From a virus (taxonomy: Duplodnaviria; Heunggongvirae; Uroviricota; Caudoviricetes): a stretch of 64,000 bases of DNA. Position 1 is the first letter of the stretch; every line of letters begins with the position of its first letter. Position numbers: made by a program. Location of the stretch: positions 3,851 through 67,850 of IMG/VR virus record IMGVR_UViG_2925908680_000007; one strand, given 5' to 3'. Shown here one piece after another: positions 42,001-45,000 of this stretch.

Positions 42001-45000
42001 TGTAATTGAAGCAGCTCTAGCACATAGTGATAAAAATGAAGTACGAAGAGCTTATAACCGCTCAACGTACCTTAATAAAAGAATAGAACTTATGGCATGG
42101 TGGGGAAGGTTTGTTTATAAAACAAACCTTTTATAACTATACTTTAAAGAACTTATTTGTCGAAGATAACTCAAGGATCGAGTTACTCATCATCATTTTC
42201 ATGTCCGCATCTTCTGAAAACTTATCACTTAATATTGACACAATATATTGACCATTTATATTATTTGCTTCAAAAAATATATCTCTAATTTGATTCACAT
42301 CGACATCTTCAATGCTATCATGAATAACAAAAGTAGGTCTCTTTAATTTAATCTTATCCACAAACTTAATATAAGCCAAATCAAATGCAGTTATTTCACC
42401 TTTCTTCTTGCCGCCATTACTGTTTGGTGTAACGCATGATATATCAAAATTACACTTACCTTTATCAACATCAAAGGAAAGATCAAAAATGTATCTTTCC
42501 CCATATATTTCCTTTGTAAGATCACCAAAAAACTCATTGAAAATCTCGATGTTTTTTTCCAGACCTTGAACTGCTAACTCTATTTCTAAAAGTAATTTCT
42601 CTCGACTATCTTCAAGAGATTTTATGAGGGCATTTGTATCATTAATACGCGAAAGATTAGACTCTATGCTAGCAAGATTTTCACGTAATTCAGTAAGCTT
42701 ATTAAATAATTGATTTATAGACTTTAATGTTTCAGGTTCTTTGATTGTTCTAAATAGGGATGATTCTTGTTCATGAAGATCATTGATTTTTTTATTTACA
42801 GTTTCTATTTCTTCTTTTTTCTTTAACAATTCAGATTCTAAAAAACTGATTTTATTCTTAATAATATCATTATGGAACAATACCATTTCTTCGTAAGTCC
42901 TTTTAAGTTCCCCATTAAAATAAATCCCCGCAGAATTATATATTTCCATTAAATCATTTTCTACAAGTTGTGTGATATTATTCTTCAAGGACAAGATCGA
43001 TTCTTCGATATTTCTTACTCGCATATTTAAGGAGGCATAGCTCAAAGAATAATCACTGATATTCTTCTGTATTTCTGAAAGCTTTTTTAAGCTTTCATCA
43101 TGACTATCTTTAAAATCGAAGTTCTTAATATTTCTTTCCGCCTCTGCAATTTCTTTCTTCAGAGGCTTAATCATTTTTGCTAAAACAGTCTCTCTATTTG
43201 GATTCCTGTATGCGGCAAGATATGTCTTTTGTTTTTTTATCTCTTTGTTAAAATCACCTTTTTTCTTTATCAGAGGTAGCCCATTGAACCCAAATAAAAA
43301 CAAGTATAATAGATCATAGACATCAGGAGTCGTATTCCCATGTAAGAAATTAAGCGTTTTCTGCATTTTATCATTCGTGTTTCTAATAAATTTATGCGAA
43401 ACATTCCTCAGTGATGGCTTATCTGTAGTTAACCCAAACACTGCTTGAGCTATAAATTCAGAATATTGTTTCTTATCTACTTCAACATCATTTAAAAAAT
43501 ATTTTGAATTTTTATCATCAATAGATATTATACGTGAAATAACTGCCTTTTTATTTTCTACCGTATTGAAATCCAATGAAAATTTCAAAACATTATTATT
43601 AATTAACGATACAATTTCAGGTATATCTTTTCCAAACTCTGCATCATGATAAATATCATGACCTGATGACATAAATAAATAATCTAAAACACGCGATAAT
43701 GTGGATTTACCTACACTATTGCCGCTATCTTTGCCTGATGTTCTTTTATTTACAATTAGATTCAGACCGTCTTTAAACGTCACCTCTCTTACAAGAGAGT
43801 CATTTTTTAAAATAATAAGTTTATTGAGCCTCATATACTATTCCACCATTTCCATCTAACTCAATTGCGCCGATTATGAAAAGCCAATCTAATGAGTAAA
43901 GAAAAAGATCAAACGATAACTCGAAGATAGAATTTACTAAATCATACAATCGAGATATTTCAATGACCATTGAATCATTACTTTGAAAGATCCTAAGCAC
44001 TACACTTCCAATATATACAGGATTTGCTTTTGGATCCGTATCAATTGTAATCATTTGGATTCTCCAGCACTATACATTCGATAATAGCATAGCTAACAAT
44101 CATACGAATGCCATAATCAATATCTTCCTGTAAAAACTCTGAATCTAAATTAGAACACGAACTAACTGTTTCTTGAGCAGCTCTAATAACATCATCTATA
44201 ATATTATCCGAGTTTTTCCTTATGAGTTCAATGTTAAATGGTTTCTCATAAAGACCATATAATCCCAATGCAGTATTATAATAACCTCTAAACTGTCTTT
44301 TCAATTTGACACTACCATTTAAAATTATAGCATCAAGTGTTTTTATGGATTCATCAACTAGCAGAGCATCTTCTTTATAAAGTTCAGCTACCCATCTGTT
44401 TCTTTTAAGATCATTGAATTCTATTTTAACATCAATATTTGATGCTATTCTGTTTAAGTTTTGCTCGCTACCAACTGAATTAGAAATAATTTCAATTAAC
44501 TTACCAATAACACTGGCTCTTAACATTCTTGGCTGGTTGTTTATATGCACAGGACCAGTATTATTATTGAAATTAACACCAGAACCCATAATTACCCCCG
44601 ATTATCAATATTCACAGGACCATTATTATCTTGAAAATATTGAGAACGCGCTCCTTGATTAATGAAGTTTCTATTAGTTGTAATTTGTACAATCTGGGAA
44701 TTAAGATCATTTATTGTAATGTTAAGTTGTTTTATCTCATTATCTTTCTTGGTTACTTGCATAGTCTGATATATTGCTATACATCCAGAGATCACCCCAA
44801 CAATATATCCAAAGGCACTTACATATTCGTTAGCAAGTAGTGATGCAATCATTTGGAGCTCCATTTCAAGCTGAAAGATTTAAAGTCACAACAATCTCAT
44901 CCTATTAGGGTAGCTAGGATAGCAACTCATGAAGAGTAAATAAATAGGTATTAATCATTATCGTTTACATGATCTAATTCAACATAGATCCACTCATGGC

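What the first reader, a model, noticed from the sequence alone, without database searches (positions are those of the whole stretch)
44546..44631. Direct repeat spanning the junction of cargo genes 1 and 2, giving a shared peptide motif
The segment cacaggacca.tattatt occurs twice about 65 bp apart, so gene 1 ends ...QDNNGPVNIDNRG and gene 2 begins MGSGVNFNNNTGPVHINNQ. The two ORFs are separated by only 2 nt and are in different frames. This may be a duplication scar, a shared interaction motif, or a sign that the two ORFs were once or are conditionally one protein.
Basis: seen in the sequence. Interest (0 to 1): 0.4.

Follow-up and report, generated by a model that had tools for sequence, protein, structure and literature searches.

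The report
Matching peptide tags link split defence effector
The DNA repeat encodes a matching ~20-residue peptide at the end of a small membrane protein and at the start of the next protein of a Lamassu-type anti-phage operon on a P4-like satellite; the pairing is conserved and co-varies across bacteria, so it most likely couples a separately encoded membrane effector to its sensor complex, much as amyloid signalling motifs do in NLR immune systems.

Summary
CACAGGACCANTATTAT occurs at 44548-44564 and 44613-44629; the repeat extends to 25/31 nt at a spacing of 65 nt. It lies on the minus strand. Gene 1 (44592-44864, one TM helix) ends ...FQDNNGPVNIDNRG*. Gene 2 (44041-44589) starts MGSGVNFNNNTGPVHINN, 2 nt later in another frame.

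The two genes head a four-gene Lamassu/ABC-3C operon: TM protein, CTD10-like LmuA C-domain with no effector domain, MC6 middle component, DUF2326/LmuB ATPase. The operon sits in the psu-int hotspot of a P4-like satellite in E. coli.

The genes are separate in all 18 genome loci fetched. Both motifs are conserved, and synonymous codons vary freely, so selection acts on the peptide. The DNA repeat is a by-product.

In at least six motif classes from distant operons, the TM protein's motif matches the N-terminus of its own CTD10 partner (0 of 200,000 permutations). Relatives with a fused HNH or other N-terminal domain lack the motif. One metagenome contig carries an exact 65-nt deletion that fuses genes 1 and 2 in frame.

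Best reading: a homotypic docking or templating motif that joins a split effector. It is formally analogous to HET-s/NWD2 and bacterial BASS pairs. Binding and any amyloid-like behaviour are untested. Recoding and RNA readings are rejected.

The parts
44592..44864 (-). Gene 1: small single-pass membrane protein (90 aa; 86 aa if the second ATG at 44852 is used, which has GGAG 6 nt upstream). Proposed membrane effector.
   Evidence: ORF. Hydropathy above 1.4 for 19-residue windows spanning residues 13-35. AF2 predicts a continuous helix 13-62, then coil. 176 homologues, all of them small TM proteins of 79-144 aa. No Pfam, PADLOC or NCBIfam family.
44760..44828 (-). Predicted transmembrane helix of gene 1 (residues 13-35). 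It is followed by KK, so the C-terminus is predicted to be cytoplasmic (positive-inside rule, inference).
   Evidence: Kyte-Doolittle scan; AF2 helix with pLDDT 91-97.
44595..44657 (-). Gene 1 C-terminal tail motif QGARSQYFQDNNGPVNIDNRG (residues 70-90). It is the most conserved part of the protein and is predicted unstructured in the monomer.
   Evidence: In alignment A5 of 115 sequences, 17 of these 21 positions are at least 90% conserved. Tail census. AF2 gives coil with pLDDT about 58-61.
44608..44638 (-). DNA repeat copy A (inside the gene 1 tail).
   Evidence: the repeat finder family D2.
44595..44599 (-). GGGGG in the last two codons (Arg-Gly) of gene 1, 5 nt before the gene 2 ATG. Likely Shine-Dalgarno sequence for translationally coupled gene 2.
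   Evidence: Sequence. In the 18 other loci the same codons read AGAGG, CGAGG, AGGGG or AGAGA. The function is inferred.
44041..44589 (-). Gene 2: LmuA-like adaptor (182 aa) made of an N-terminal motif plus a CTD10-like helical domain, with no effector domain.
44527..44589 (-). Gene 2 N-terminal head motif MGSGVNFNNNTGPVHINNQPR (residues 1-21), a flexible extension in front of the folded domain.
   Evidence: Family consensus M-x-x-G-V-x-F-x-x-N-x-G-P-V-x-I. AF2 gives residues 1-23 as coil with pLDDT 62-71; helices begin at residue 27.
44543..44573 (-). DNA repeat copy B (inside the gene 2 head).
   Evidence: the repeat finder family D2.
44044..44511 (-). All-alpha CTD10-like domain of gene 2 (residues 27-182). 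Presumed LmuB/LmuC-binding and oligomerisation domain.
43821..44054 (-). Gene 3: ABC-3C middle component MC6 (LmuC-like). Overlaps gene 2 by 14 nt.
   Evidence: Pfam PF20293, 50.1 bits against a cutoff of 27.2. RefSeq annotation in 28 E. coli genomes.
42137..43834 (-). Gene 4: SMC/Rad50-like ABC ATPase with coiled-coil insert (LmuB-like, DUF2326). Overlaps gene 3 by 14 nt.
   Evidence: Pfam DUF2326, 64.3 bits against a cutoff of 28.7. PADLOC PDC-M68B 1.3e-45 and LmuB 3e-16 over the full length.
40937..42136 (+). P4-type integrase. One flank of the hotspot.
   Evidence: Pfam Phage_integrase, Phage_int_M, Arm-DNA-bind_3.
45305..45877 (-). Psu (polarity suppression protein). The other flank of the hotspot. 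Delta, AlpA and the alpha primase lie further on.
   Evidence: Pfam Psu 4e-88, Ogr_Delta, AlpA, primase domains.

Best explanation
The repeat is the DNA shadow of two matching ~20-residue peptide motifs. They couple a split effector in a Lamassu/ABC-3C defence system of the CTD10-MC6-DUF2326 type. In canonical Lamassu, the effector LmuA has an N-terminal effector domain fused to a C-terminal domain. LmuB2-LmuC hold that C-terminal domain captive, and it oligomerises once released (Li et al. 2025). Here the effector is encoded separately. Gene 1 is a single-pass membrane protein with a cytoplasmic tail, ...SQYFQDNNGPVNIDNRG. Gene 2 is an LmuA C-domain preceded only by GVNFNNNTGPVHINN. I propose the following sequence. 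The ATPase complex detects phage DNA and releases gene 2. Gene 2 oligomerises through its CTD10 domain, which brings several head motifs together. These pair or stack homotypically with gene 1 tails. Clustered gene 1 TM helices then damage the membrane and abort the infection.

Shown: the operon architecture, conservation of both motifs, selection at the peptide level, co-variation of the pair across operons, absence of the motif from fused relatives, and flexibility of both motifs in monomer models.

Inferred: direct motif-motif contact, whether it is constitutive or induced, the beta-type pairing, membrane killing, and anti-phage activity itself.
For: Architecture. MC6 and DUF2326 score above the Pfam cutoffs, and the PADLOC LmuB model matches at 3e-16. 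The gene 2 fold is closest to solved LmuA chains.

Conservation. Gene 2 heads are conserved in 96 homologues. Gene 1 tails are nearly invariant in more than 100 homologues. The two genes are adjacent, with a 1-5 nt gap, in all 18 genome loci, from Enterobacterales to Vibrio, Crenothrix, Methylophilaceae and Francisellaceae.

Peptide-level selection. Synonymous codons vary freely. The same codon is used at 69 of 124 shared residues, against 65 expected.

Co-variation. Nine further operons show matched pairs, for example VISGDNNRQAGRDIS* with SINGDGNNQAGGDLT, AENHGVVAKSVSGGVKI with GENSGVIAGEINGPVEI, and VSQSGGHFSKNDQTVNI with VSQDGGIGSTNNQTVNI. Cognate pairs score 43.7 on average and non-cognate pairs 22.1; 0 of 200,000 permutations reach the observed sum.

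Controls. The long HNH-CTD10 and other fused relatives listed lack an evident motif. P0257, which has no motif, turned out to be an HNH fusion with a mis-called start.

Fusion. A natural 65-nt deletion joins gene 1 to gene 2 at the motif, giving an LmuA-like architecture.

Monomer models. Both motifs are coil with low pLDDT although they are highly conserved.

Composition. N 20%, G 15%, V 10%, I 9%; L, P and K are depleted. This is the bias reported for BASS motifs.

Framework. Lamassu works by sequestration, then liberation and oligomerisation.
Confidence: 0.6

Rival explanations
1. Common-site model. The two motifs do not touch each other. Both fit the same groove on a third surface (the CTD10 domain, MC6 or the ATPase). 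The gene 2 head would act as a built-in pseudo-ligand, and the gene 1 tail would compete with it or replace it on activation.
For: This model also explains why the two motifs stay similar and change together across operons. It would fit the asymmetry in which the gene 1 tail is far more conserved than the gene 2 head.
Against: The AF2 monomer of gene 2 does not dock its head onto the domain; residues 1-23 are coil with pLDDT 62-71. The N/G/Q/V/I-rich, L/K/P-poor composition with alternating hydrophobics is typical of beta-stacking motifs rather than of groove-binding linear motifs. Neither point is decisive.
Confidence: 0.2
2. DNA-level switch. The direct repeat exists to promote deletion (and perhaps re-duplication), toggling between the split and fused forms of the effector.
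For: One contig, L019, carries exactly the 65-nt deletion and an in-frame fusion. The E. coli repeat is 25/31 nt.
Against: Only 1 of about 96 gene 2 relatives is fused. The deletion junction lies at the 3' edge of the repeat with only about 2 nt of microhomology. In other lineages the two copies share as few as 15-21 of 36 nt, and codon identity is at chance level. All 28 E. coli genomes and all 18 genome loci fetched are split. The fusion comes from a single 1.4-kb metagenome scaffold and could be an assembly or sequencing artefact.
Confidence: 0.05
3. Conditional fusion by recoding. Ribosomes frameshift or hop from the first GGT-CCT-GTG to the second and so produce a TM-CTD10 fusion protein.
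For: In the window the codons GGT CCT GTG are identical in both copies, 65 nt apart, and a hop would be in frame.
Against: The gap is 1, 2, 4 or 5 nt and the spacing 59-68 nt, so neither the frame relation nor the distance is conserved. In several loci the corresponding codons all differ, for example GGC CCA GTA against GGA CCG GTC in L008. There is no slippery site or stop at the putative take-off position. The junction RNA folds no better than shuffles (z = -0.61). There is no Rfam match.
Confidence: 0.03
4. Neutral duplication scar. A tandem duplication split an ancestral gene, and the similarity is a historical leftover without function.
For: Fused relatives exist. The flanks of the two copies show faint further similarity by eye (GGTGTTAAT against AGTGTTATT). 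This comparison was not tested for significance and was not pursued.
Against: A scar would decay. Instead both copies are among the most conserved parts of their proteins over about 60% sequence divergence. Different operons carry different but internally matched motifs.
Confidence: 0.02

Closest known systems
[quoted passage not shown] 2020, as cited in the papers read; Li et al. 2025, bioRxiv 10.1101/2025.03.14.643221)
   Same: The gene order is effector-CTD, middle component, SMC-like ABC ATPase. MC6 and DUF2326/LmuB are detected. The gene 2 fold is closest to solved LmuA C-domains. The system is carried on mobile elements (P4 and P2 hotspots).
   Different: The LmuA-like protein has no effector domain. 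In its place is a ~20-residue motif, and an extra upstream gene encodes a TM protein that ends in the matching motif, which makes a four-gene system. The Lamassu papers I could read do not mention such a split.
Amyloid signalling motif pairs: fungal HET-S/NWD2 (HRAM, PP, sigma) and bacterial BASS Bell/NLR pairs (Dyrka et al. 2020, bioRxiv 10.1101/2020.01.06.895854)
   Same: A short motif is shared by the C-terminus of a small membrane-targeting effector and the N-terminus of the oligomerising immune component encoded by the next collinear gene, a few bp away. The composition is N/Q/G/V/I-rich and K/P/L-poor. There are many motif families, each matched within its own pair. All-in-one fused relatives exist.
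   Different: The partner is an LmuA-type adaptor of an ABC/SMC system, not a NACHT or NB-ARC NLR. The effector is a constitutive single-pass TM protein, not a Bell or HeLo domain. The matched stretches are 9-26 residues, rather than the typical ~25. The window's class has a conserved Pro. The hosts are unicellular Proteobacteria, including E. coli, whereas BASS were reported only from multicellular bacteria. Amyloid formation is untested.
Effector-associated domains (EADs) and death-fold adaptors of NTPase conflict systems (Kaur, Burroughs, Iyer and Aravind 2020; recalled from memory, not read here)
   Same: The logic of a homotypic adaptor present both on a separately encoded effector and on the sensor or core protein.
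   Different: Those are globular domains of roughly 80-100 residues. Here the adaptor is a short segment that is unstructured in the monomer.
Oligomerisation-activated TM effectors of abortive-infection systems, for example the CBASS membrane effectors (from general knowledge)
   Same: Membrane damage as the output, triggered by clustering of small TM proteins.
   Different: Those effectors are activated by binding a nucleotide signal, not by a peptide motif shared with an adaptor.

Membership tests
Lamassu / ABC-3C | SMC/Rad50-like ABC ATPase with coiled-coil insert (LmuB) | tested here: met
   Gene 4: PADLOC LmuB model PDLC03859 at E=3e-16 over residues 1-533, and PDC-M68B at 1.3e-45. Pfam DUF2326 at 64.3 bits against a cutoff of 28.7, with weaker AAA_21 and SMC_N matches.
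Lamassu / ABC-3C | Small middle component (LmuC/MC) encoded between the effector gene and the ATPase gene | tested here: met
   Gene 3: PF20293 MC6 at 50.1 bits against a cutoff of 27.2. The same family is called in related loci.
Lamassu / ABC-3C | Effector protein carries a family-specific C-terminal domain (CTD1-12) | tested here: inconclusive
Lamassu / ABC-3C | An effector domain (nuclease, lipase, protease and so on) fused N-terminally to the CTD in one polypeptide | tested here: not met
   Gene 2 has only 26 residues before the helical domain. The candidate effector is the separate gene 1. Fused HNH-CTD10 relatives do exist.
Lamassu / ABC-3C | Protects against phage or plasmids by abortive infection | not testable with these tools
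   Only the location in the P4 psu-int hotspot and a PADLOC candidate model speak for this.
Amyloid signalling motif pair (HET-s/NWD2, BASS) | The same short motif at the effector C-terminus and at the N-terminus of the protein encoded by the adjacent collinear gene | tested here: met
   Permutation test: 0 of 200,000. Gaps of 1-5 nt. In one variant (L027) the motif lies in a loop between two TM helices.
Amyloid signalling motif pair (HET-s/NWD2, BASS) | The receptor is an NLR/STAND NTPase (NACHT or NB-ARC) | tested here: not met
   The partner is a CTD10-like helical protein. The system's NTPase is an ABC/SMC-type ATPase.
Amyloid signalling motif pair (HET-s/NWD2, BASS) | The effector is a Bell, HeLo or other known cell-death domain | tested here: not met
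   Gene 1 has no Pfam, NCBIfam or PADLOC family above threshold. It is a single TM helix plus a helical stalk.
Amyloid signalling motif pair (HET-s/NWD2, BASS) | Composition enriched in N, Q, G, V, I and depleted in K, P, L; about 25 residues; beta propensity | tested here: inconclusive
   The composition fits: N 20%, G 15%, V 10%, I 9%, Q 6%, L 0.5%, P 1.4%, K 2.2%. The matched stretches are 9-26 residues. AF2 monomers show coil, not strands. No amyloid predictor was available.
Amyloid signalling motif pair (HET-s/NWD2, BASS) | Forms cross-beta fibrils or prions, with the receptor-side motif templating the effector side | not testable with these tools
   Needs peptide biophysics or in vivo reporters.
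Programmed frameshift or translational bypass | Conserved frame relation, slippery or take-off and landing codons, and a stimulatory RNA structure | tested here: not met
   Gaps of 1, 2, 4 or 5 nt. The corresponding codons differ between copies in several loci. RNA fold z = -0.61. No Rfam hit.

The most novel reading that the evidence does not exclude
The motif pair is a true amyloid-like (cross-beta, in-register) signalling device. Release and oligomerisation of the LmuA-like adaptor would nucleate a beta-stack of its N-terminal motifs. That stack would template the tails of the membrane protein into a higher-order assembly that permeabilises the cell. This would extend prion-like immune signalling, so far tied to NLRs in fungi and multicellular bacteria, to an SMC/ABC-type phage-defence system carried by a P4 satellite in E. 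coli.
Probability: 0.25. Interest if true: 0.85.

Novelty: new variant of a known kind. Interest (0 to 1): 0.65.

Why it matters
Lamassu is a widespread defence family, and its activation logic (sequestration, then liberation and oligomerisation of the effector) was worked out only recently, for fused nuclease effectors.

This locus suggests that the same machinery can drive a separately encoded membrane effector through a short matched peptide. That would be a modular plug-and-socket link, apparently diversified into at least six motif classes.

The link mirrors the genomic signature used to discover amyloid signalling in fungal and bacterial NLR systems. That signalling was reported as restricted to multicellular bacteria.

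If the analogy holds, E. coli would offer a genetically tractable model for prion-like immune signalling. It would also give a simple rule, matching termini of adjacent genes, for finding split effectors in other defence families.

Even if the motifs are only docking peptides, they define which residues to mutate, and which to swap between operons, to test how effectors are recruited.

Tried and rejected
RNA-level reading. The junction mRNA (44540-44665, minus strand) folds at -23.8 kcal/mol, z = -0.61 against shuffles. There is no Rfam match in 41900-45400 apart from a sub-threshold chance hit.

Recoding (frameshift or hop). Rejected because the gap, frame and spacing vary and the codons do not match between copies.

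Gene conversion or DNA-level constraint. Codon identity at shared residues is at chance level, 69/124 against 65 expected.

Family libraries. PADLOC, NCBIfam and Pfam gave nothing usable for gene 1, and only weak coiled-coil noise (DivIC, FtsL-like). PADLOC and NCBIfam gave nothing for genes 2 and 3.

Other effector types with the same tail. The profile search returned 176 hits. All 120 listed are small proteins (79-144 aa) with the conserved tail.

Plus-strand ORF across the junction (44414-44662, 82 aa). The only 'homologue' is P0096, an evident chimeric metagenome call. Dismissed.

Literature. No paper in the library links Lamassu or ABC-3C with amyloid signalling or with a split TM effector. 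Krishnan et al. 2020 itself is not held, so I could not check whether it mentions stand-alone CTD10 proteins with TM partners.

Tandem 66-nt duplication origin. The faint similarity of the flanks was judged by eye, is not significant, and was not pursued.
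Full report
**Observation.** The repeat is present as described. CACAGGACCANTATTAT occurs exactly twice in the window, at 44548-44564 and 44613-44629; none of 100 shuffles gave two matches. It extends to 44543-44573 versus 44608-44638, 25/31 nt at a spacing of 65 nt. None of 200 Markov-1 simulations of the operon reached that score. The genes read on the minus strand. Gene 1 (44592-44864, 90 aa) ends ...SQYFQDNNGPVNIDNRG-TAA. Two bases later gene 2 (44041-44589, 182 aa) starts MGSGVNFNNNTGPVHINNQ in another frame. The two copies share the codon register of their own genes: FQDNNGPVNIDN against FNNNTGPVHINN.

**What the genes are.** Four overlapping or abutting minus-strand genes form an AT-rich operon (30% GC).
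- Gene 1 has one hydrophobic helix (residues 13-35). AF2 models it as a helix spanning residues 13-62 followed by an unstructured tail.
- Gene 2 matches Pfam CTD10 of ABC-three-component systems weakly (E=0.004).
- Gene 3 is the ABC-3C middle component MC6 (50.1 bits against a cutoff of 27.2).
- Gene 4 is a DUF2326 ABC ATPase with a coiled-coil insert. It matches PADLOC PDC-M68B (1.3e-45) and LmuB (3e-16).

The operon lies between a P4-type integrase (40937-42136) and psu, delta, alpA and the alpha primase. That is the P4 satellite hotspot described by Rousset et al. 2022 (PMC9122126). The window is E. coli: 28 of 5,426 complete genomes carry the operon at 99% identity or more, with genes 1 and 2 annotated as hypothetical.

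**Are the genes fused elsewhere, and is the motif conserved?** Gene 2 has 96 close homologues at 40-91% identity, nearly all of them 182 aa. All full-length ones begin M-x-x-G-V-x-F-x-x-N-x-G-P-V/I-x-I/V. I fetched 18 genome loci, from Enterobacterales, Vibrio, Microbulbifer, Pseudoalteromonas, Crenothrix, Methylophilaceae and Francisellaceae. In every one, a gene 1 homologue ends 1, 2, 4 or 5 nt before gene 2. The gene 1 tail QG-x-K/R-SQYFQ-D/E-N-x-G-P/S-V-N-I-D-N-R-G is the best conserved part of that protein: 17 of its 21 positions are at least 90% conserved in 115 sequences, and the tail is almost invariant in more than 100 homologues. So the genes are stably separate, yet both motifs are kept.

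**DNA or peptide?** Synonymous codons differ freely, both between lineages and between the two copies. At residues shared by the two motifs the same codon is used 69 times out of 124, against 65 expected from pooled codon usage. Nucleotide identity of the 36-nt core ranges from 15 to 29, and the spacing from 59 to 68 nt. Selection therefore acts on the peptides. The 25/31-nt DNA repeat in E. coli is a by-product of two similar peptides written in AT-rich codons. The terminal Arg-Gly codons (CGG GGG, AGA GGN or CGA GGC in most loci) sit 4-8 nt before the gene 2 ATG, and they probably double as its Shine-Dalgarno sequence (inference).

**Co-variation.** An exhaustive profile search with the gene 2 family found 271 representatives at E <= 0.001. 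Of the 145 listed sequences I examined, 127 are stand-alone proteins of 170-235 aa. Their first 30 residues are 31% N+G+Q, against 13% in the rest of the protein. I looked up ten of their operons. Nine have a small TM protein directly upstream, and where the contig extends far enough, MC6 and a DUF2326 ATPase follow. In each of the nine, the TM protein carries a motif matching the head of its own partner, although the motifs differ between operons:
- ...VISGDNNRQAGRDIS* against SINGDGNNQAGGDLT
- ...AENHGVVAKSVSGGVKIGK* against GENSGVIAGEINGPVEI
- ...NNGNNSGVISGINSGEI against NCGDNSGVMVANNNGSI
- ...VSQSGGHFSKNDQTVNI against VSQDGGIGSTNNQTVNI
- ...NKNGSTGYQAQNMTVNN against VQNGSNGYQAEKMWVFN
- ...ENHGVMNIDN against GNNYGIVNIGN

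In L027 the motif lies in the loop between two TM helices. For 11 operons, cognate tail-head local alignment scores average 43.7 and non-cognate scores 22.1. None of 200,000 permutations reaches the observed sum, and at least six motif classes are distinguishable.

**Fused relatives.** The long members of the family are all-in-one proteins, HNH-CTD10 or another N-terminal domain fused to CTD10, and show no evident motif. The tenth operon served as a control. Its protein, P0257, is a stand-alone representative without a motif. It turned out to be an HNH-CTD10 fusion with a mis-called start. One protein, P0003, from a 1,398-bp ENA metagenome scaffold, is a gene 1-gene 2 fusion...FQDNNGPVNIDN|QPRVLRAS.... 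At the DNA level it is an exact 65-nt deletion, with the junction at the 3' edge of the repeat, and the MC6 gene still follows. It shows that the two motifs occupy equivalent positions and that joining them recreates the canonical LmuA layout. It is a single observation, and read-level support could not be checked.

**Mechanism proposed.** Li et al. 2025 (bioRxiv 10.1101/2025.03.14.643221) show that two LmuB protomers and LmuC sequester the C-terminal oligomerisation domain of LmuA. DNA sensing liberates LmuA, and oligomerisation activates the N-terminal effector. The effector domain makes no contacts in the sequestered complex, so it is freely exchangeable. They place CTD6-12 and MC2-8 systems with small LmuB proteins in one sub-family. 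The present CTD10-MC6 system, with a 565-aa ATPase, falls in it.

I therefore propose that gene 2 is the sequestered and liberated module. Its oligomerisation clusters the head motifs. These engage the matching cytoplasmic tails of gene 1, and clustered TM helices compromise the membrane.

Both motif segments are highly conserved yet modelled as low-confidence coil in monomers. That is the usual signature of a segment that folds on binding. The motifs are N/G/V/I/Q-rich and L/K/P-poor. The requirement that the two partners resemble each other, rather than merely complement each other, points to in-register homotypic beta pairing.

All of this parallels the signature by which amyloid signalling pairs were found: fungal HET-S/NWD2, and the bacterial BASS motifs on Bell-domain effectors and NLRs. 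The shared features are collinear adjacent genes a few bp apart, a C-terminal effector motif equal to the N-terminal receptor motif, the same compositional bias, and all-in-one relatives.

The differences are substantial. There is no NLR and no Bell or HeLo domain. The matches are shorter. The window's class has a conserved Pro. The hosts are unicellular Proteobacteria, whereas BASS were reported only in multicellular bacteria. I therefore do not file this locus as a BASS member. I say it works like one at the level of genomic logic, and the cross-beta step remains untested.

**Rivals.**
1. Both motifs bind one common site, as a pseudo-ligand and its competitor. This also explains the similarity and the co-variation, and it fits the stronger conservation of the tail. 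I cannot exclude it (0.2).
2. A DNA repeat kept as a deletion switch. Contradicted by chance-level codon identity, by low nucleotide identity in other lineages and by the rarity of fusions (0.05).
3. Frameshift or ribosome hopping. Contradicted by the variable gaps, frames and spacing, by unmatched codons, by the unremarkable RNA fold (z = -0.61) and by the lack of an Rfam hit (0.03).
4. A neutral duplication scar. Contradicted by the conservation and the co-variation (0.02).

**Novelty and verdict.** The family (Lamassu/ABC-3C, CTD10, MC6) is known. I found no description of a four-gene form with a split TM effector joined by co-varying terminal motifs in the literature I could search. The founding ABC-3C paper is not held, so prior mention there cannot be ruled out. 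I rate this a new variant of a known kind, of above-average interest. It gives a concrete and easily testable hypothesis for effector recruitment in Lamassu, and a possible E. coli example of prion-like immune signalling.

Noticed in passing
window 39394-40593 and 40937-42136 (+): Two tyrosine-integrase genes lie in tandem about 340 bp apart. One has Arm-DNA-bind_2 and the other Arm-DNA-bind_3. ARAGORN finds no tRNA gene between 36 and 56 kb. This suggests two integrative elements inserted side by side, or an element inserted next to the remnant of another.
   Followed up: partly
L025 (Logan SRR6869397 contig), 3628-6503: A related four-gene system (122-aa TM protein, CTD10-like, MC6, DUF2326) sits in a P2-like prophage, between regulatory genes (Ogr_Delta, Peptidase_S24) and tail genes (GpU, GPD). 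The same kind of cargo therefore occupies both P2 and P4 hotspots.
   Followed up: partly
L027 2720-3001: Variant partner protein with two TM helices. The matched motif (VTATGGSVAIGGSNTGQITNI) lies in the loop between them rather than at the C-terminus.
   Followed up: partly
L003 (Siccibacter colletis) 4727-4998: The gene 1 homologue appears to be frameshifted. The TM part (50 aa) and the stalk-plus-tail part (63 aa) are in different frames. This is a possible pseudogene in an otherwise intact operon.
   Followed up: no
L031 / P0257: The called 178-aa CTD10 protein is really the C-terminal part of an HNH-CTD10 fusion. The reading frame continues upstream into an HNH domain, so the start was mis-called. 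P0186 and P0234 begin inside HNH-like sequence and look like similar cases.
   Followed up: partly
P0096 (ENA contig, 141 aa): A chimeric 'protein' that joins gene 2 sequence to the translation of the opposite strand of the junction region (it matches plus-strand ORF 44414-44662). This is probably an inversion or a mis-assembly in a metagenome contig.
   Followed up: no
E. coli hits H10 (NZ_CM132655.1), H8 (NZ_CP082053.1) and H12-H15, H23: In a few of the 28 carrier genomes the annotation differs. Some have one or three hypothetical genes instead of two, H10 has one extra base in the aligned region, and in others the MC6 gene is not called. This hints at occasional frameshifts or annotation gaps in the operon.
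   Followed up: no
window 44852-44864: Gene 1 has two in-frame ATGs (MELQM...). The second, at 44852, has GGAG 6 nt upstream, and many homologues start there (86 aa). The true start is probably the second ATG.
   Followed up: partly
window 45140-45159 (+): GC-rich terminator-like hairpin (CCGCCCGC...GCGGGGCGG followed by a T run) in the 440-bp spacer between gene 1 and psu, at the sharp boundary between the 30%-GC cargo and the GC-rich P4 backbone.
   Followed up: no
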